A stretch of DNA of 37,940 nucleotides. It comes from a virus. Taxonomy: Duplodnaviria; Heunggongvirae; Uroviricota; Caudoviricetes. Shown one piece after another: positions 1,904 to 37,105 of this stretch; position 1 is the first letter of the stretch, and each line of letters begins with the position of its first letter. The stretch lies in the IMG/VR virus record IMGVR_UViG_2859783438_000005. The stretch is one strand, 5' to 3'. The notes under the pieces are model-generated. The model worked only from the letters and a program-made list of their open reading frames with translations, searched no databases and had not been told where the DNA came from. The translations under genes were made by a program, and so were the position numbers.

Positions 1904-2157
1904 TGAAGTGGCACACTGAATTTGGCCACCTGAACAGAGGTGATATGCTCACCTCAGAACAACACAGGTGCTCCAATGAAAAAAAGAAATTTTAGCGCAG
2001 AGTTTAAACGCGAATCCGCTCAACTGGTTGACTATATCGTTGGATATTACAGCGCACTAAGACCGCACGAATATAACGGTGGGTTACCCCCAAACGAATC
2101 GGAAAATCGATACTGGAAAAACTCTAACTCGGTGGCCAGTTTTTGTTGACCACTTCA
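1904..2157 (+). mobile_element. miniature internally deleted IS911-like element (IS3 family) with 3-bp target duplication
   Basis: imperfect terminal inverted repeats tgaagtggcacactgaatttggccacc (left) and ggtggccagtttttgttgaccacttca (right, reverse complement tgaagtggtcaacaaaaactggccacc); flanked by CTC direct repeats at 1901-1903 and 2158-2160; internal ORF begins [18 protein letters not shown] as in IS911 OrfA. Confidence 0.7.
1940..2149 (+). pseudogene. remnant transposase ORF (IS911 OrfA N-terminus fused to an IS3-family OrfB C-terminal tail)
   Basis: 69-aa ORF; OrfA-like start [18 protein letters not shown] joined directly to ...[33 protein letters not shown]; far too short to encode a functional transposase. 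Confidence 0.55.
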
Positions 2158-23243: not shown

Positions 23244-25214
23244 ATGAGAACCACAACACGAAAATTTAAAACCATTATCACCGATACGGGTGCAAAAAAA
23301 TTAGCGCAGGCAACCGCGCCAGATGGGAAACCTGTCCGCCTGACACATATGGCCGTGGGTGACGGCGGCGGTACTTTACCCACGCCAGACAGTAAGCAGA
23401 CCCGTCTTGTGCATGAGGTGTGGCGACATACCGTTAATCGCGTCACCCTGGACGCAACACATCAGAACCACATTATTGCGGAGCTGGTTATTCCTCCTGA
23501 AACGGGCGGATTCTGGATCCGGGAAATTGGTGTGTTTGATGAGCACGGCGATTTGATCGCGGTAGGCAATACTGCCGAAAGTTACAAGCCAACCGTTGCC
23601 GAAGGATCCGGACGTGCACAAACATTTCGCACCATTCTGACCGTATCCAGCACTGCCACTGTGGCGCTTACCGTGGATAACACCATGGTGATGGCCACAG
23701 TGAATTACGTGGATGACAAACTGAAAGAGCATGAACAGTCACGACGTCACCCGGACGCCTCGCTGACCGCAAAAGGCCTTGTCCAGCTCAGCAACGCCAC
23801 CAACAGCACGTCTGAAACGCTGGCAGCGACACCAAAAGCCGTTAAGGCAGTAATGGATGAAACGAACAAGAAAGCCCCATTAAACAGCCCGGCACTGACC
23901 GGAACGCCAACAACACCAACTGCGCGACAGGGAACGAATAATACCCAAATCGCAAGCACGGCTTTCGTTATGGCTGCGATTGCCGCACTTGTAGACTCTT
24001 CGCCTGATGCACTGAACACACTGAACGAGCTGGCGGCGGCGCTGGGCAACGACCCGAATTTTGCGACCACCATGACTAACGCGCTTGCGGGTAAGCAACC
24101 GAAAGATGCCACTCTGACGGCGCTGGCGGGGCTTGCTACTGCGGCAGACAGGTTTCCGTATTTTACGGGGAATGATGTCGCCAGCCTGGCAACCCTGACA
24201 AAAGTCGGGCGGGATATTCTTGCGAAATCGACCGTTGCCGCCGTTATCGAATACCTCGGTTTACAGGAAACGGTAAATCAGGCTTCTGGCGCATTACAGA
24301 AAAACCAGAACGGCGCAGATATTCCGGGGAAAGATACCTTCACCAAAAATATTGGTGCCTGCCGCGCATATAGCTCATGGCTGAATATTGGTGGCGATAG
24401 TCAGGTCTGGACAACCGCGCAATTTATTTCGTGGCTGGAGAGTCAGGGAGCATTTAACCATCCTTACTGGATGTGCAAAGGCTCATGGGCTTATGCAAAT
24501 AATAAGGTCATTACAGATACAGGTTGCGGAAATATTTGTCTTGCAGGTGCTGTGGTGGAAGTTATTGGCACTCGCGGCGCAATGACCATACGCGTTACCA
24601 CGCCGAGCACGTCCAGCGGTGGCGGAATTACTAACGCTCAATTCACTTATATTAATCATGGTGATGCTTACGCTCCTGGCTGGCGACGAGACTACAACAC
24701 GAAAAATCAACAACCTGCATTTGCTTTAGGGCAAACAGGAAGCACTGTCGGAAATGATAAAGCTGTTGGCTGGAACTGGAATAGCGGGGTCTATAACGCA
24801 AACATTGGTGGCGCATCGACATTAATCCTCCACTTCAATATGAATACGGGGAGCTGCCCTGCTGTACAGTTCCGCGTGAATTACAGGAACGGCGGTATTT
24901 TTTATCGTTCAGCGCGTGATGGTTATGGCTTTGAAGCTGACTGGTCAGAGTTTTACACCACAACCCGCAAACCCTCTGCGGGAGATGTTGGTGCATATAC
25001 GCAGGCAGAATGTAACTCAAGGTTTATTACAGGTATTCGCCTTGGTGGTCTGTTATCTGTTCAGACATGGAATGGTCCCGGATGGTCTGACAGGTCAGGT
25101 TATGTTGTTACCGGTTCCGTTAACTCAAACAGAGATGAACTAATTGATACAACTCAGGCAAGGCCAATTCAGTATTGCATTAATGGGACGTGGTATAACG
25201 CGGGGAGTATTTAA
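23244..25214 (+). CDS. H: tail fibre protein H: constant N-terminal part fused to the currently expressed variable C-terminal cassette
   Basis: 656-aa ORF; first ~340 aa closely resemble P2 H (GDGGG, ELVIPPE, EHEQSRRHPDASLTAKGLVQLSNATNSTSETLAATPKAVK...), then diverge after ...YLGLQETVN at the gix-like site. Confidence 0.9.
   Translation: MRTTTRKFKTIITDTGAKKLAQATAPDGKPVRLTHMAVGDGGGTLPTPDSKQTRLVHEVWRHTVNRVTLDATHQNHIIAELVIPPETGGFWIREIGVFDEHGDLIAVGNTAESYKPTVAEGSGRAQTFRTILTVSSTATVALTVDNTMVMATVNYVDDKLKEHEQSRRHPDASLTAKGLVQLSNATNSTSETLAATPKAVKAVMDETNKKAPLNSPALTGTPTTPTARQGTNNTQIASTAFVMAAIAALVDSSPDALNTLNELAAALGNDPNFATTMTNALAGKQPKDATLTALAGLATAADRFPYFTGNDVASLATLTKVGRDILAKSTVAAVIEYLGLQETVNQASGALQKNQNGADIPGKDTFTKNIGACRAYSSWLNIGGDSQVWTTAQFISWLESQGAFNHPYWMCKGSWAYANNKVITDTGCGNICLAGAVVEVIGTRGAMTIRVTTPSTSSGGGITNAQFTYINHGDAYAPGWRRDYNTKNQQPAFALGQTGSTVGNDKAVGWNWNSGVYNANIGGASTLILHFNMNTGSCPAVQFRVNYRNGGIFYRSARDGYGFEADWSEFYTTTRKPSAGDVGAYTQAECNSRFITGIRLGGLLSVQTWNGPGWSDRSGYVVTGSVNSNRDELIDTTQARPIQYCINGTWYNAGSI
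24253..24277. repeat. gix/hix-like recombination site A (left inverted repeat of the invertible fibre segment)
   Basis: acctcggtttacaggaaacggtaaa; the reverse complement recurs at 27310-27334; matches the Mu gix site as I recall it (TTCCTGTAAACCGAGG...). Confidence 0.7.
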
Positions 25215-25216
25215 CG

Positions 25217-25750
25217 ATGATGCACTTAAAAAACATTTCTGCTGGTAATCCTGAAACAAAAGAGCAATACCAGCTAACGAAACAATTTAACATCAAATGG
25301 CTTTATACAGAGGATGGGAAAAACTGGTATGAGGAACAAAAGAACTTTCAGCCTGATACGTTGAAAATGGTCTATGACCACAACGGCGTTATTATTTGTA
25401 TTGAAAAGGATGTTTCAGCAATTAATCCGGAAGGCGCAAGCGTCGTTGAGGTTCCTGATATTACAGCAAATCGCCGGGCTGATATTTCAGGTAAATGGAT
25501 GTTCAAAGATGGCGTAGTGATAAAGCGAACTTATACCGGGGAAGAGCAGAGGCAACAAGCGGAAAATGAAAAGCAAAGCCTGCTACAGCTCGTCAGGGAT
25601 AAAACCCAGCTATGGGACTCACAGCTACGGCTGGGCATTATTTCCGACGAGAATAAACAAAAATTAACCGAGTGGATGCTCTATGCGCAGAAGGTCGAAT
25701 CCACAGACACCTCCAGCCTGCCAGTAACGTTTCCCGAACAACCAGAATGA
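25217..25750 (+). CDS. G: tail fibre assembly protein (gpG/Tfa family), current orientation
   Basis: 177-aa ORF directly after H; paralogous to the minus-strand ORF 25779..26306 (MMHLKNI.AGN...[23 protein letters not shown]). Confidence 0.8.
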   Translation: MMHLKNISAGNPETKEQYQLTKQFNIKWLYTEDGKNWYEEQKNFQPDTLKMVYDHNGVIICIEKDVSAINPEGASVVEVPDITANRRADISGKWMFKDGVVIKRTYTGEEQRQQAENEKQSLLQLVRDKTQLWDSQLRLGIISDENKQKLTEWMLYAQKVESTDTSSLPVTFPEQPE

Positions 25751-25778: not shown

Positions 25779-26306
25779 TTACTCAGGCTTTTGTGGCCAT
25801 TCTGGCTTTGCCGTATCCACACGGCTGACCAGAACACTGTAGCGTTCCCATGCTTCCAGTCGTGTGCGTTCCTCGTCCGTCGCCATATTCAGCCTGACAG
25901 CGCGTTCCAGCGGCTGGATGACTGATTCAGCTTCGGAAAGCAATGCGGCCTTTTGTGATTCGGCCTGTTGTTGCTGTTCGTCAGCCGTATAAATCCGTTT
26001 AACCACAGCTCCGTCCTTAAACATCCACTTACCGGAATCATCAGCACGACGATTAGCTGTAATATCAGGAACCTCAACGACGCTATAACCTTCAGGGTTA
26101 AGCGTGGAGGCATCTTTGGTGATGGCGACAATAATATTATTTGCATCGTAAACAATCTTTATTGTGTCTGGCTGAAAGTTCTTCACTTCCTCATACCAGT
26201 TTTTTCCGTCCTCAGAGTAAAGCCAGATGACTCCGTGCTTCTTTGTTAACTCATACTGCTCCACTGTTTTAGCATTACCTGCTTTTATGTTCTTTAAGTG
26301 CATCAT
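25779..26306 (-). CDS. alternative tail fibre assembly protein (Tfa') of the inverted cassette
   Basis: track ORF 25779..26339 trimmed to Met [11 protein letters not shown]; paralogue of G. Confidence 0.7.
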
Positions 26307-26307
26307 A

Positions 26308-26949
26308 TTAAATACTCGCCACATTATACCAAGTGCCATTTATATACTTTTGCACTGGCCTGTAATGAACGCCTGCAATATTATCGGCAGAGTTTTTTCC
26401 GGTATCCTGTACGTTAATCCCCGTCAGTACATAGCCTGACGGGCACTGAAAATTCCATGTTTGCCAGTTGTTCACTCCATAATATTGCTGTGAACCAAGT
26501 CGAACATCTTTCACATATCTGGAATCAAAATTGCCATAGTTGCCGGGAATAACTTGCGAGCCGCAAAGCCAGTTCCCGTTATTATCCATGTACGCCTGAC
26601 CATCGGTGCCATTGGCTGTCCTTGAGTTATTAATCATGTAGATGCCAAATTGCTTATTTCCCAGACCGCCAATCATAAATTTGCGGTCGGCATGGTCCTG
26701 ACGGAGCAAAGCCTGAGCACCATCAGTGGATACCGCATTACGTCCCAAAATAACATTCTGGTCACGCATATGAATCCACATGCCGGTACTACTGTTAATT
26801 GCAAAACGGTTTGCAAATATATCCCCTGTAACATCAAGACCATGCCCCATGCTTATCCGGCCAGTTCTGAGATTAAGCGTAAAGGGGCGTAGTGGCCCTA
26901 TATTACCATTTTCCCCTTCATTCTCTCGTGTAGGATGATATGCAGGCAT
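26308..26949 (-). CDS. alternative tail fibre C-terminal receptor-binding cassette (H'v), promoterless; upstream part lies in another frame
   Basis: ends ...[16 protein letters not shown]...[16 protein letters not shown] as in the P2 H C-terminus; the 5' continuation to the gix site (26898..27309) is in a different frame. Confidence 0.55.
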
Positions 26950-27309
26950 TCTTCAGAACGACGAAAAATGGCACCAAAAGATGAATTAAATATCCTCAGT
27001 GCATTGACTGTCGATATTTTCACTTCACTGCTGAAAAGGGCTTCAACAAGAACAGACAAAGCATTCCATTTAAGATTCATCAGGTCTTTAGGCCGGGTGC
27101 CAATGATGCGGTGTCTCCATTTGAAATATTCATTGCCGTTGTTGCCTGTTTCAAACCACATGTAGGAATCGGTGTCTGCATCCGAATTATTTTTAAACCC
27201 AATCTTTGCCCAGTCAGTATTTCGAATCCAGGCAAGGATTGAGTCGTTTTCAAAAGTAAGTCCACCGGACAACGTATCGCCATTTTTTTGCACGGCGTTA
27301 CCAGCCTTG

Positions 27310-27334
27310 TTTACCGTTTCCTGTAAACCGAGGT
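27310..27334. repeat. gix/hix-like recombination site B (right inverted repeat), interrupted by IS insertion
   Basis: tttaccgtttcctgtaaaccgaggt; the rest of the predicted site (tagataa) is displaced to about 27850 beyond the IS. Confidence 0.65.
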
Positions 27335-27335
27335 T

Positions 27336-27846
27336 TGAGGTGTACTGGCAATAGCGGACACTACCATTTGTTCTTTTTTTAAGCAGCCATCTGATGATAT
27401 TTTTCCCTGAAGGCTGCCGGGGAGATATTCCCCAGACGAGAGTGACGACGCTGACGATTGTAGAAAATCTCAATGTATTCCCGTATTACTGAGATGGCTT
27501 CATCCCGGTTATTAAAACGATAGTGGCTCAGGCTCTCATTTTTCAGCGTTCCCCAGAAGCTTTCCATCGGAGCGNNNNNNNNNNNNNNNNNNNNNNNNNN
27601 NNNNNNNNNNNNNNNNNNNNNNNNNNNNNNNNNNNNNNNNNNNNNNNNNNNNNNNNNNNNNNNNNNNNNNNNNNAAGAGATAATCGGGAAGCGCCTTCAC
27701 TGATCGAAAGTTGATTTTCAAGAACCGTTCTGACAGCTTCGGCTTTGAACTCTTTAGAGTAACGTTGGGTTTTTCTGCTCATTATTAGCTCCTTCTGATG
27801 CCATTCTATTTCAGGAAGGAGTGTCCGTTAAACTCAGGCTACCTCA
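27336..27846 (-). mobile_element. IS3-family insertion sequence (IS600-like), interior unresolved by an assembly gap
   Basis: terminal inverted repeats tgaggtgtactggcaatagcggacactacc (27336-27365) and ggaaggagtgtccgttaaactcaggctacctca (27814-27846); 3-bp GTT direct repeats at 27333-27335 and 27847-27849; OrfA N-terminus MSRKTQRYSKEFKAEAVRTV and OrfB C-terminus ...FYNRQRRHSRLGNISPAAF on the minus strand. Confidence 0.7.
27575..27674. other. assembly gap (100 N)
   Basis: run of exactly 100 n inside the IS element; the true length of the missing sequence is unknown. Confidence 0.95.
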
Positions 27847-27911
27847 GTTTTAGATAATGGCCGTTTCCGGCCTGCATGGCATGATTTGCGCTTTTGGACG
27901 GGAGATTCAGC

Positions 27912-28499
27912 GTGCTGATTGGCTATGTAAGGGTATCAACAAATGACCAGAATACAGACCTGCAACGAAACGCTCTTGTTTGTGCAGGATGTGAACAAAT
28001 ATTTGAAGATAAATTAAGCGGGACAAAGACAGACCGACCGGGATTAAAACGCGCTTTAAAGCGCCTTCAAAAAGGTGACACGCTGGTTGTCTGGAAACTG
28101 GATCGCCTCGGGCGAAGCATGAAACATCTGATTTCTCTCGTCGGGGAACTACGGGAGCGAGGAATTAATTTTCGCAGTCTGACCGACAGCATAGATACAT
28201 CTTCTCCAATGGGGCGTTTTTTCTTCCACGTGATGGGTGCCCTGGCTGAAATGGAACGTGAATTAATTGTTGAACGTACACTGGCCGGACTGGCGGCAGC
28301 ACGCGCACGGGGGCGCACAGGCGGACGTCGACCGAAGCTGACAAAAGAACAGCATGAGCAAATAGCAAGGCTGATCAAAAACGGGCACGACAGAAAACAA
28401 CTGGCAATAATTTACGGCATTGGTATATCGACGATTTATCGTTACCACCCCGCAGGAGAATCAATCGGAACAATAGAGAAGAGTCAGGAAACAAAATAA
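27912..28499 (+). CDS. serine DNA invertase (Gin/Pin/Hin/Cin family)
   Basis: track ORF 27894..28499; from the GTG at 27912 the protein reads MLIGYVRVSTNDQNTDLQRNALVCAGCEQIFEDKLSG..., nearly identical to Gin/Pin as I recall them (catalytic Ser in VRVSTNDQ). Confidence 0.88.
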   Translation: MLIGYVRVSTNDQNTDLQRNALVCAGCEQIFEDKLSGTKTDRPGLKRALKRLQKGDTLVVWKLDRLGRSMKHLISLVGELRERGINFRSLTDSIDTSSPMGRFFFHVMGALAEMERELIVERTLAGLAAARARGRTGGRRPKLTKEQHEQIARLIKNGHDRKQLAIIYGIGISTIYRYHPAGESIGTIEKSQETK

Positions 28500-35602: not shown

Positions 35603-37105
35603 ATGAACAAAAAGCTGTATTTATTCCCAGACTCAAACATTTTTCTACAATGCAAGGACTTGACGCAGGTAAATTTTTCCGAGATTACTGCTTGTGATGA
35701 AGTATGTATCATTATTACAAGGCCCATTCAGCAAGAGATTGACCGCCAGAAAGGGCAAGGTAATTCCCGCCTATCCAAAAAAGCAAGGAAGGCTGCTAGC
35801 CTATTTAATCAAGTAGTTGATTCAACTGACATGACTCTTGTTATTCGTGAACGCTCGCCGCGAGTTTTTCTTACCATGGATCTAAGCCTGAAACCATGTG
35901 AACAGTTATCTGAACAATTGGATTATCAGGAGGCCGACGATCGTTTTGTTGGTATTGCGGCAGGGTATTGCGCTGACGATCCAGATTCGGAGGTGGCAAT
36001 CATTACCAATGATAGCGGTCCACGTTTTTCAGCAATAAAACATAATATAATCTGCTATAAAGTGCCTTCTTCATGGTTGCTTCCTGCTGAGCCAGATGAA
36101 AAGGATAAACAAATTAAATTGCTGGAAGCTAAGCTGAAGCAATTCACTCAGTCTATGCCCGATTTCAGCATTAAAGTAGCCGATGACGAGCAATTAAATA
36201 TTGTACTTCCTTATTATACAGCTTTATCTGAATATGAAGTTGATAATTTGCTTTGTCAACTAACGGATGCATTCCCATTGGTTACAAACTTTGACAATGA
36301 ACAAACTACCCCACAATCACTAGAAAAAATCATCAAGTCATTTAGTCAACAGGAGTATTTCCCTGTATCAGCAGATGATATTTCTCTTTATAAAGAAAAA
36401 CATTATCCACTTTGGAAAAAGCAGTGTGAAGAAATACTGAAAAACTGTCATACTCATATTAATCCGAAGGCAATAAATTACCCGCTGTCGTTTTTATTAC
36501 AAAACACAGGTTATACTATCGCTGAACGTGCTGTGGTAACATTTACAGCAAAAGGAGATTTTCGTCTGTGTGGATTTAATTGGGAGATAATGGAAGAGCT
36601 GACTGAAAGCAAAAGGATTGACCTACCTTCAGCCCCTACCGCCCCCAAAGGAAAATGGCGTAGTGTATGTGGCGTAACAGAAAGAATGCCTTACGCTGGG
36701 GGAGCTTTGGAAACACCGCTATCCAGTATAATTTCAAAAGAAATTGGTCCTTTGTTATCTCTTACTCCAACAGAAAGGGATAAAAACGATTTTTATTATA
36801 AAGAAAAGAGAAATGAGCCAGTTCAAGTTGTATCGCTGGAATGCGAAGAGTGGCGTCATCAAGTCAAAGAAGAAATATTCCCGTTGTTCGTATATACAGC
36901 CAACAAACCAAAGAAAGTGAATGGTGCAATTGAGGTGAGAGTTGATGCAAATAACCTTACCAATCCGGTCATTAAAACATTTAAATTAAAAATAACTATA
37001 GAAGAACATAGTGCATTTTCAACCATAACAGAAATGGTGCAGACATACATTCAAGAGCAGAAGAAAAGACAGAAAAGTTCTATTAGCGCACAAATCAAAA
37101 CATGA
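35603..37105 (+). CDS. 500-aa protein with PIN-like N-terminal domain (putative nuclease) and unrecognised C-terminal domain
   Basis: single long ORF in markedly AT-rich DNA; N-terminal ~150 aa show a PIN-like layout of conserved acidic positions (YLFPDSNIFL ... TRPIQQEIDRQ ... DD ... IITNDSGPR). Confidence 0.6.
   Translation: MNKKLYLFPDSNIFLQCKDLTQVNFSEITACDEVCIIITRPIQQEIDRQKGQGNSRLSKKARKAASLFNQVVDSTDMTLVIRERSPRVFLTMDLSLKPCEQLSEQLDYQEADDRFVGIAAGYCADDPDSEVAIITNDSGPRFSAIKHNIICYKVPSSWLLPAEPDEKDKQIKLLEAKLKQFTQSMPDFSIKVADDEQLNIVLPYYTALSEYEVDNLLCQLTDAFPLVTNFDNEQTTPQSLEKIIKSFSQQEYFPVSADDISLYKEKHYPLWKKQCEEILKNCHTHINPKAINYPLSFLLQNTGYTIAERAVVTFTAKGDFRLCGFNWEIMEELTESKRIDLPSAPTAPKGKWRSVCGVTERMPYAGGALETPLSSIISKEIGPLLSLTPTERDKNDFYYKEKRNEPVQVVSLECEEWRHQVKEEIFPLFVYTANKPKKVNGAIEVRVDANNLTNPVIKTFKLKITIEEHSAFSTITEMVQTYIQEQKKRQKSSISAQIKT

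What the first reader, a model, noticed from the sequence alone, without database searches (positions are those of the whole stretch)
27310..27856. IS3-family element inserted into the distal gix site, separating the invertible segment from its invertase, with an assembly gap inside
The IS ends (tgaggtgtactgg... at 27336 and ...ctcaggctacctca at 27846) are flanked by GTT direct repeats. Removing the IS reconstitutes a continuous gix-like site (...cctgtaaaccgaggtt + tagataa...), so the element sits inside the right half-site of recombination site B and between the segment and the invertase gene with its promoter. This probably locks the fibre cassette in its present orientation. The 100-N gap (27575-27674) means the IS interior, and therefore its intactness and true length, is unknown, and local assembly should be treated with caution.
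Basis: seen in the sequence. Interest (0 to 1): 0.5.

Follow-up and report, generated by a model that had tools for sequence, protein, structure and literature searches.

The report
IS600 inside a prophage inversion site
An IS600 insertion sequence really does sit inside one of the two recombination sites of a Shigella prophage's tail-fibre switch (the known B segment-pinB system), but near-identical genomes with the very same insertion carry the segment in both orientations, so the switch does not appear to be locked.

Summary
Window 27336-27846 holds the two ends of IS600 (IS3 family), 100% identical to a reference copy. They are flanked by a 3-bp GTT duplication, and the 100 N replace 853 bp of the element's interior. 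Removing the IS and one GTT gives TTCCTGTAAACC GA GGTTTTAGATAA. This is contiguous in IS-free relatives and letter-for-letter the published bixR of the Shigella boydii B segment-pinB system. The proximal site (24244-24269) is bixL. The window is 100% identical to CP029794.1, N gap included. Seven other chromosome-scale relatives (99.9-100% identical) carry a complete IS600 (1264 bp where measured) at exactly this junction, so a misjoin is unlikely.

The "locked" interpretation is contradicted. Among these IS-bearing genomes the 3.07-kb segment occurs in both orientations. This includes three genomes that share a second IS600 marker and a SNP yet differ in orientation, so inversion occurred after the insertion. 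The likely reason is that IS600 begins with T. The hybrid site therefore keeps the inner 12 bp (AAACCGAGGTTT) that Gin catalysis needs, and only the outer 7 bp of one half-site change. The inversion rate is unknown. This is an ordinary IS insertion in a known system, with one modestly interesting twist.

The parts
23244..25214 (+). Tail-fibre gene in its current state (656 aa). The constant part runs 23244-24256 and the variable part Sv lies inside the segment at 24257-25214.
   Evidence: ORF. Pfam Phage_tail_fib and Phage_fiber_2 on the equivalent 656-aa products in relatives.
24244..24269 (-). Proximal crossover site, equal to bixL. The minus strand reads TTCCTGTAAACC GA GGTATTCGATAA. The central dinucleotide is at 24256-24257.
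   Evidence: Identical to bixL in Table 3 of PMC3241671.
24257..27330 (.). Invertible B segment, 3074 bp between the two central dinucleotides.
   Evidence: Imperfect inverted repeat I4, 24253-24304 / 27283-27334. Found inverted in FDAARGOS_943 and in IS-bearing relatives.
25217..25750 (+). Tail-fibre assembly chaperone (177 aa) cognate to the 656-aa fibre.
   Evidence: Pfam Caudo_TAP on the equivalent gene in relatives.
25779..26306 (-). Alternative tail-fibre assembly chaperone (175 aa), silent in this orientation.
   Evidence: Caudo_TAP in relatives.
26308..27330 (-). Silent alternative fibre C-terminus Sv' (Gp34_trimer type). This assembly has a 1-bp deletion at about 26932.
   Evidence: In-silico inversion gives a 481-aa product as the sequence stands and a 678-aa product once the G is restored.
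27318..27343 (+). Hybrid distal site bixR': an intact inner half-site, the GA core, GGTT of the outer half, then IS600 bases TGAGGTGT. It reads TTCCTGTAAACC GA GGTTTGAGGTGT.
   Evidence: It matches native bixR at 22 of 26 positions, and the inner 12 bp AAACCGAGGTTT are unchanged.
27333..27335 (.). Left copy of the GTT target-site duplication.
27336..27846 (-). IS600 (IS3 family). Present are 239 bp of the orfB-distal end, 100 N standing for 853 bp, and 172 bp of the orfA-proximal end. The transposase reads on the minus strand, away from the invertase.
   Evidence: The complete element is present at the same junction in relatives: measured as 1264 bp in seven loci, with CP044151.1's junctions mapping one base shorter. 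The promoter-like site TTAACG-17-TAGAAT on the minus strand at 27831-27803 lies in the IS end upstream of orfA.
27575..27674 (.). Assembly gap of 100 N inside IS600.
   Evidence: The same gap is present in CP029794.1 (L022).
27847..27857 (+). Right copy of the GTT duplication plus the displaced outer part of bixR (GTTTTAGATAA).
27912..28499 (+). Intact serine DNA invertase (195 aa, GTG start), PinB/Gin-like. The first 200 bp are 197 of 200 identical to Mu gin, the region that holds the Fis-dependent enhancer in Mu.
   Evidence: Pfam Resolvase plus HTH_7. The identical protein is listed in 2066 collection blocks. Comparison with gin. Enhancer location from PMC3378877.

Best explanation
A single IS600 element transposed into the outer half of bixR and duplicated GTT. 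In reality it is almost certainly the full 1264 bp; it is collapsed to two ends plus 100 N in this scaffold. bixR is the invertase-proximal crossover site of the B segment-pinB tail-fibre switch. The switch belongs to a P2-family (Xuanwuvirus/P88-like) prophage integrated between ihfA and btuC in a Shigella chromosome.

The insertion pushes the segment about 1.27 kb away from pinB and its enhancer. It replaces the outer 7 bp of one half-site. It does not abolish inversion.

IS600 begins with T, so the junction still reads ...AAACC GA GGTTT.... The inner half-site, the GA crossover dinucleotide and the inner 12 bp that the Gin-type catalytic domain needs are all intact. Three of the seven outer positions still match by chance.

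A PinB dimer anchored on the good half-site is inferred to still synapse this hybrid site with bixL and flip the segment, at an unknown and possibly reduced rate.

Shown here: the identity of the IS, the duplication, the site identities and the post-insertion inversion. Inferred: that PinB itself acts on the hybrid site, and why it can.
For: IS identity, orientation and length.

Exact 3-bp duplication and repair to a contiguous site.

bixL and bixR identity.

The window is 100% identical to CP029794.1 (L022, L034), N gap included, and is therefore taken as its source. Seven other chromosome-scale relatives are 99.9-100% identical and have an identical junction and duplication. IS600 measures exactly 1264 bp in seven loci; CP044151.1's copy maps one base shorter.

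Both orientations occur among IS-bearing genomes. Fibre of 656 aa: CP029794.1, CP032523.1, CP180280.1, CP044191.1. Fibre of 678 aa: CP026836.1, CP044151.1, VFAD01000001.1, UGZB01000001.1.

CP032523.1, CP044191.1 and CP044151.1 share a second IS600 at the same position with the same CAC duplication, and they share SNP 22260A. They still differ in segment orientation.

Once the segment is flipped back in silico, the sequences match the window with no change at either site. The exchange is therefore precise and falls within the 25 bp that the two sites share around the core.

None of 5426 complete E. coli genomes has IS600 at this site, although 3345 had a match to some part of the 539-bp junction query and 42 align across the repaired IS-free junction. 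This argues against a recurrent hot spot.

The inner 12 bp AAASSWWSSTTT are the part of gix reported as important for Gin catalytic activity (PMC5175349).

Natural Din-family sites include outer halves as degenerate as the hybrid, for example cixL GGTTTAGGATTG and the mix sites CGTTTTTATGTG and CGTTTTAGTCTT (PMC3241671).

The invertase is intact, and the enhancer-bearing 5' region is 197 of 200 identical to Mu gin.
Against: No read-level or experimental data were available. The evidence for inversion is comparative and gives only a lower bound on the rate, so the switch could be slowed by orders of magnitude.

The outermost TT of the half-site is invariant in the six natural bix/gix-type sites collected here and is lost in the hybrid.

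Which invertase performs the reaction was not shown. Shigella and E. coli carry other Pin-type enzymes.

For this particular strain the IS interior is unsequenced.

The window's own assembly may be reference-guided, so its orientation call is weak.
Confidence: 0.8

Rival explanations
1. One reading: the IS destroys bixR, so the cassette is frozen in the orientation it had when the IS arrived.
For: The outer 7 bp of the half-site change from TAGATAA to GAGGTGT. These include the TTATC-type bases that the helix-turn-helix domain would contact, and the TT that is invariant in natural sites. No second intact site exists to the right.
Against: Both orientations occur in genomes with the identical IS junction. 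They occur even within the clade marked by a second shared IS600 and a shared SNP.
Confidence: 0.07
2. Gap-induced misjoin: the two IS600 ends belong to different copies or contigs, and the segment and invertase are not really adjacent through one IS in this genome.
For: The join passes through 100 N in a scaffold that shows other signs of modest quality: five homopolymer deletions and a collapsed IS911-like element.
Against: The flanks carry a matching GTT duplication and rejoin into a perfect bixR. Both IS ends are in the same orientation. Seven gap-free relatives that are 99.9-100% identical show exactly this join through one complete IS600. Draft relatives break their contigs in this same IS (L024-L026).
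Confidence: 0.03
3. bixR is a hot spot for IS600. The element inserted independently into prophages that were already in different orientations, so the switch could still be locked in each.
For: The target ...CGAGGTT resembles the IS600 terminus TGAGGT. From my own knowledge, IS3-family elements such as IS911 can insert next to sequences that resemble their ends.
Against: It requires identical position, orientation and duplication each time. It also requires that the second IS600 and SNP 22260A arose in parallel. No IS600 lies at this site in 5426 E. coli genomes, of which 42 align across the repaired IS-free junction. There are no exact junction matches in the species-representative genomes or the JGI metagenomes.
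Confidence: 0.05
4. Inversion after the insertion is real but is not PinB acting on the hybrid site. It would instead be rare RecA-type recombination within the 25 bp shared by the two sites, or the work of another Pin-type invertase acting in trans.
For: The products cannot distinguish a crossover at the GA core from one elsewhere in the 25 identical bp. One draft relative has a truncated invertase (L024).
Against: From general knowledge, 25 bp is below the usual length for efficient homologous recombination. At least two independent precise flips occurred among genomes that differ by 6 or fewer SNPs in about 18 kb. The local invertase is intact in the window and in all complete relatives.
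Confidence: 0.1

Closest known systems
B segment-pinB inversion system of Shigella boydii (Tominaga et al. 1991, GenBank D00660)
   Same: Both crossover sites are identical letter for letter. Window site A equals bixL and the repaired site B equals bixR. The segment is about 3 kb and carries two fibre C-termini and two chaperones, with an adjacent Gin-like invertase. The prophage also occurs in a genome listed as S. boydii (CP026836.1).
   Different: Here bixR is split by IS600. The published bixR is intact. I could not read the 1991 paper or compare the D00660 PinB sequence directly.
Phage Mu G segment-Gin (gixL/gixR, sis enhancer, Fis)
   Same: Same architecture, with the segment 84-93% identical to Mu at the DNA level over most of its length. 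The catalytic domain is nearly identical, and the first 200 bp of the gene are 197 of 200 identical. bixR differs from gix at one base.
   Different: The host element is a P2-family prophage rather than a transposable phage. The constant part of the fibre is P2 H-like. The C-terminal DNA-binding domain of the invertase has diverged. An IS lies in the distal site.
Degenerate natural sites of the Din family: cix and mix sites of P1 and p15B, and Cin 'quasi-sites'
   Same: These recombination sites have one good half and one poorly matching outer half and are still used, for example cixL and the mix sites in Table 3 of PMC3241671. From my own knowledge, Cin also uses low-homology quasi-sites at low frequency.
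   Different: Here the degenerate half was created abruptly by a transposon terminus. It is neither an evolved site nor a fortuitous chromosomal one.
IS600 (IS3 family) of Shigella and E. coli
   Same: The ends are 100% identical, the duplication is 3 bp, and the relatives have the 1264-bp orfA/orfB organisation.
   Different: Nothing unusual about the element itself. Only its target, inside a serine-invertase crossover site, is notable.
Xuanwuvirus (P88-like Peduoviridae) prophages with a tail-fibre invertase, e.g. Escherichia phage 520873 and P88
   Same: Same gene order: I, H, TAP, TAP', H', invertase, then convergent U-T-E tail genes. DNA identity is 87-94%.
   Different: Those phages have an intact distal site and no IS.

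Membership tests
IS600 / IS3 family insertion sequence | Terminal inverted repeats of IS600 (TGAGG... / ...CCTCA) with sequence identity to a reference copy | tested here: met
   239 bp and 172 bp are 100% identical to the copy on pWR501, which is annotated 'IS3-like element IS600 family transposase'.
IS600 / IS3 family insertion sequence | 3-bp target-site duplication | tested here: met
   GTT at 27333-27335 and 27847-27849. A second IS600 in relatives is flanked by CAC/CAC.
IS600 / IS3 family insertion sequence | Complete orfA (HTH) and orfB (DDE rve) organisation, length 1264 bp | tested here: inconclusive
   In the window only the orfA N-terminus and orfB C-terminus are visible because 853 bp are replaced by N. 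At the same locus seven relatives measure exactly 1264 bp, and CP044151.1's copy maps one base shorter. Their transposase products carry HTH_Tnp_1 and rve domains.
Din-family DNA inversion switch (Gin/Cin/Pin/Hin/PinB type) | Small serine recombinase with an N-terminal catalytic domain and a C-terminal HTH_7 domain, adjacent to the segment | tested here: met
   Pfam Resolvase 1.3e-50 and HTH_7 1.6e-13. Catalytic-domain sequence nearly identical to Gin.
Din-family DNA inversion switch (Gin/Cin/Pin/Hin/PinB type) | Two 26-bp crossover sites in inverted orientation with the same central dinucleotide | tested here: inconclusive
   bixL is intact. The second site keeps the inner half, the GA core and 5 bp of the outer half, and the rest is IS600 sequence. 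It fails as a canonical 26-bp site but retains 22 of 26 positions.
Din-family DNA inversion switch (Gin/Cin/Pin/Hin/PinB type) | The segment actually inverts and swaps alternative fibre C-termini and chaperones | tested here: met
   Both orientations are seen in an IS-free relative and in IS-bearing relatives. Each gives a full-length fibre, 656 or 678 aa. The evidence is comparative, not experimental.
Din-family DNA inversion switch (Gin/Cin/Pin/Hin/PinB type) | Fis-dependent recombinational enhancer inside the 5' part of the invertase gene | not tested
   Inferred only. The first 200 bp are 197 of 200 identical to Mu gin, where three Fis sites lie within the coding region (PMC3378877).
B segment-pinB system specifically | bixL and bixR sequences as published | tested here: met
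   26 of 26 for bixL, and 26 of 26 for bixR after removing the IS and one GTT.
B segment-pinB system specifically | Invertase identical or near-identical to PinB of D00660 | not testable with these tools
P2-family (Xuanwuvirus-like) prophage | P2-type structural and replication gene set and synteny | tested here: met
   GPA, GPD, Phage_P2_GpU, GpE, Tail_P2_I, Baseplate_J, Phage_cap_P2, integrase and Ogr_Delta are present. DNA identity to Xuanwuvirus phage 520873 is 87-94%.

The most novel reading that the evidence does not exclude
The IS600 terminus acts as a surrogate outer half-site. A natural Din-family switch keeps flipping with one of its four half-sites reduced to its inner 5 bp plus chance matches. 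This makes these Shigella genomes a ready-made in vivo experiment on the minimal crossover site, and on what happens when the site is moved 1.3 kb from its enhancer. In addition, the IS-bearing prophage appears in two chromosomal backgrounds: the S. sonnei set and CP026836.1, which is listed as S. boydii and whose pheT flank is about 1.5% divergent. The phage may therefore have remained transmissible with the IS on board.
Probability: 0.55. Interest if true: 0.5.

Novelty: new variant of a known kind. Interest (0 to 1): 0.4.

Why it matters
The IS insertion on its own is routine: Shigella genomes are full of IS600, and the B-pinB switch has been known since 1991. The point of interest is that an insertion which looks like a knock-out of a recombination site evidently is not one.

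This cautions against scoring phase-variable loci as "locked" from sequence alone.

It also gives recombinase researchers a natural hybrid site with which to measure how much of an outer half-site a wild-type Din invertase needs in vivo, and how enhancer distance affects the reaction.

Finally, it is a clear example of how IS-induced gaps in draft Shigella assemblies can be resolved using complete relatives.

Tried and rejected
- **Promoter scans.** Consensus scans of 27200-28000 and of the IS-free relative found no candidate invertase promoter. The only hit is IS600's own promoter on the minus strand. A conserved TGGCATGAT (extended -10-like) lies downstream of the IS and is seen by eye in the alignment. 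It is only a suggestion, so whether the IS affects invertase expression is unresolved.
- **Literature on the gin promoter and on this locus.** Searches for the gin promoter and for an IS600/invertase/tail-fibre locus in S. sonnei returned nothing relevant. One search failed on a term that was too short.
- **Tominaga et al. 1991.** PMC208056 is not held, so bix site sequences were taken from Table 3 of PMC3241671.
- **Record look-up.** NZ_CP032523.1 is not in the E. coli collection, which is consistent with the relatives being filed as Shigella.
- **Exact junction scans.** Scans of the species-representative genomes and the JGI metagenomes gave 0 hits.
- **Left flank of CP026836.1.** Two look-ups aimed at testing phage-mediated transfer did not return that record.
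- **IS copy comparison.** IS600 copy sequences are identical across the genomes but do not discriminate, because other copies share the same variants.
- **Apparent frameshift in the silent Sv'.** I considered it a real pseudogene and rejected that as the preferred reading. It is one of five 1-bp homopolymer deletions unique to this assembly.
- **Other routes to the flipped arrangement.** Inversion by recombination between the two IS600 copies is rejected, because the observed arrangement in CP044151.1 inverts the whole segment including the second IS. Use of the right IS junction as the crossover site is rejected, because the IS never moves with the segment.
- **Failed scripts.** Searches failed because of file layout and gave no result.

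Full report
**1. What is in the sequence**

TGAGGTGTACTGG begins at 27336 and ...CTCAGGCTACCTCA ends at 27846. The only N run in the window is 27575-27674.

The 239 bp to the left of the gap and the 172 bp to its right each match IS600 at 100% identity. They hit hundreds of Escherichia and Shigella plasmid records. On one reference copy (pWR501, L001) they map collinearly to 1501-1739 and 2593-2764, the two ends of a 1264-bp element annotated "IS3-like element IS600 family transposase". The 100 N therefore stand in for 853 bp of IS interior.

The transposase reads on the minus strand, away from the invertase gene. The one promoter-like hit in the region is the IS's own, in the orfA-proximal end.

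GTT flanks both ends.

**2. The target is a crossover site of a known system**

Removing the IS and one GTT gives TTCCTGTAAACC GA GGTTTTAGATAA.

This joined sequence is contiguous in E. coli strain 755 and in phage SfMu. A 1000-bp repaired junction aligns end to end in 42 complete E. coli genomes and in several phages.

The partner site is at 24244-24269. Its minus strand reads TTCCTGTAAACC GA GGTATTCGATAA. It lies inside the tail-fibre gene and heads a 52-nt imperfect inverted repeat with the distal end.

Both 26-mers are letter for letter the bixL and bixR sites listed for PinB, the B segment of Shigella boydii, in Table 3 of PMC3241671. The "gix-like" sites are therefore bix sites, and the system is the B segment-pinB switch. 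From my own knowledge, this was described by Tominaga et al. 1991 as a close relative of Mu G-gin with a different constant region. The paper itself could not be read.

**3. Context**

The window is a P2-family prophage of the Xuanwuvirus/P88 type, lying between btuC and ihfA-pheT.

The local gene order is as follows:
- Baseplate genes J and I.
- The fibre gene (23244-25214, 656 aa), with its constant part ending at the bixL core.
- Chaperone (25217-25750).
- Inverted chaperone (25779-26306).
- Inverted alternative fibre C-terminus (26308-27330).
- IS600.
- The invertase (27912-28499).
- Convergent tail genes.

The invertase is intact, with Resolvase and HTH_7 domains. Its first 200 bp are 197 of 200 identical to Mu gin. 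That is the region where Mu's three Fis sites (the enhancer) lie (PMC3378877). The C-terminal DNA-binding domain differs from Gin.

**4. Is the join through the gap real?**

Yes, as far as comparison can show. The window is 100% identical to CP029794.1, including the N run (L022 and L034), and is therefore taken as its source.

Look-ups with the window's invertase and tape-measure proteins returned the same prophage at the same chromosomal site in seven other chromosome-scale assemblies:
- CP032523.1
- UGZB01000001.1
- CP026836.1
- CP180280.1
- CP044151.1
- CP044191.1
- VFAD01000001.1

These are 99.9-100% identical to the window. Each carries a complete IS600 at exactly ...CCGAGGTT|TGAGG...CCTCA|GTTTTAGATAA. 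The element measures 1264 bp in seven loci; CP044151.1's copy maps one base shorter.

Draft relatives break their contigs inside this IS (L024-L026). That explains the gap.

CP180280 is a lineage 1 S. sonnei (PMC12511311). CP026836.1 is listed as S. boydii (PMC12817139).

**5. Is the cassette locked?**

The comparative data say no.

- An IS-free E. coli prophage (FDAARGOS_943) is 99.8-99.9% identical over the segment and the region to its left, and has the segment inverted. The segment is therefore a working invertible element.
- More importantly, the IS-bearing genomes themselves occur in both states. Four have the 656-aa fibre and four the 678-aa fibre. The individual records are listed under Best explanation.
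- Three of them (CP032523.1, CP044191.1, CP044151.1) share a second IS600 inside the chaperone gene. It lies at the same nucleotide with the same CAC duplication, seen as its reverse complement in CP044151.1. They alone also share SNP 22260 G>A. Two of them are in the 656 state and one is in the 678 state.
- After I flipped the segment back and removed the second IS in silico, all loci differ from the window by at most six substitutions, with none at either crossover site.

Inversion therefore occurred, precisely and at least twice, after IS600 had entered bixR.

The alternative is repeated independent insertion at the same base and in the same orientation. It is unparsimonious and has no support. 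None of 5426 complete E. coli genomes has IS600 at this site. In that search 3345 genomes had a match to some part of the 539-bp junction query, and 42 genomes align across the repaired IS-free junction. The junction is also absent from the species-representative genomes and the JGI metagenomes.

**6. How the hybrid site can work (inference)**

The junction reads TTCCTGTAAACC GA GGTT|TGAGGTGT. The IS begins with T, so the inner run GGTTT survives.

The inner 12 bp AAACCGAGGTTT are unchanged. That is the part of gix reported as important for Gin catalytic-domain activity, AAASSWWSSTTT (PMC5175349). Overall 22 of 26 positions match native bixR.

What is lost is the outer TTATC-type sequence on one half-site, including the TT that is invariant in the six natural bix/gix-type sites I collected.

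Natural Din-family sites already include halves this degenerate. Examples are cixL GGTTTAGGATTG and the mix sites CGTTTTTATGTG and CGTTTTAGTCTT (PMC3241671).

A dimer held by the intact half-site and by dimer contacts could therefore still occupy the hybrid.

The insertion also lengthens the distance from the site core to the invertase start from 67 bp to about 1.33 kb. In the Hin system a short site-enhancer distance limits the reaction to one subunit rotation (PMC3798978). A change in processivity is therefore possible, but it was not tested.

The data give only a lower bound on rate, so the switch may be much slower than wild type. Which invertase acts was not shown.

**7. Quality of this assembly**

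Compared with its relatives, the window has five single-base deletions, all in homopolymer runs:

| Position | Apparent effect |
|---|---|
| 5476 | not examined |
| 8170 | breaks gpA |
| 11575 | not examined |
| 12101 | breaks the portal gene |
| 26932 | breaks the silent fibre C-terminus |

Restoring the G at 26932 and inverting in silico yields the 678-aa fibre seen in relatives. These are most likely consensus errors. A 250-bp element with IS911-like ends at 1904-2153 is either collapsed or a genuine mini-element.

**8. Verdict**

The structural interpretation is supported. The functional interpretation ("locked") is contradicted by relatives that carry the same insertion in both orientations.

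The system and the IS are known. The new element is a transposon-made hybrid crossover site that evidently still recombines. I found no paper describing it. Interest is moderate.

Noticed in passing
window 5476, 8170, 11575, 12101, 26932: Five 1-bp deletions relative to all close relatives, each in a homopolymer run. They split gpA (940 aa in relatives), the portal gene and the silent fibre C-terminus. They are probably consensus errors of this assembly, not real pseudogenes.
   Followed up: partly
window 1904-2153: A 250-bp insert absent from CP032523.1, with IS911-like ends (TGAAGTGGCAC... / ...GACCACTTCA). It is either a collapsed IS911 copy without N padding or a genuine internally deleted mini-element, and it interrupts a small prophage gene next to the integrase.
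   Followed up: partly
window-equivalent 25620-25622; L018, L020 and L021 (second IS600 copy, CAC-flanked): Three relatives (CP032523.1, CP044191.1, CP044151.1) carry a second IS600 inside the 177-aa chaperone gene, with duplication CAC. It truncates the chaperone to 137 aa, so in those strains only the 678-aa fibre keeps an intact cognate chaperone.
   Followed up: yes
L017 (CP026836.1), pheT flank starting about 884 bp beyond the window's right end: The same IS-bearing prophage (one private SNP) sits in a genome listed as S. boydii, whose pheS/pheT flank differs from the S. sonnei set at about 45 positions in 3 kb. The IS-carrying prophage, or a chromosomal block containing it, has therefore moved between lineages recently. 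The left flank could not be retrieved.
   Followed up: partly
window 27879; L018: CP032523.1 has G>A inside a motif CATGGCATGAT that is conserved between Mu, SfMu, phage 520873 and this prophage, upstream of the invertase start. TGGCATGAT looks like an extended -10 element, but no promoter was confirmed.
   Followed up: no
window 27328-27343: The target ...CGAGGTT immediately precedes the IS terminus TGAGGTGT, so GAGGT occurs twice in tandem. The resemblance between the target and the IS end may have guided the insertion, as reported for other IS3-family elements (my own knowledge). No recurrent insertion was found.
   Followed up: partly
window 23249: A substitution unique to this assembly (A; all relatives have T) in codon 2 of the tail-fibre gene.
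   Followed up: no
L024 (AKNC01000049.1) 13345-13593: One draft relative has the invertase gene called as only 82 aa (HTH_7 part only), which suggests a truncated or frameshifted pinB in that strain.
   Followed up: no
window 35603-37105 and 9142-10101: Prophage cargo: a 500-aa PIN_4-domain protein next to ogr and a hok-like gene at the right end, and a ParM/StbA-type partition gene after gpA. Both are shared with related prophages at the ihfA-btuC site.
   Followed up: no
L017 15124-16224; L012 1709-2809: In the 678 state, gene callers predict a 366-aa ORF that starts inside IS600 and runs in frame into the silent 656-type fibre C-terminus. Transcription reading out of the IS could express a fibre fragment and its chaperone.
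   Followed up: no
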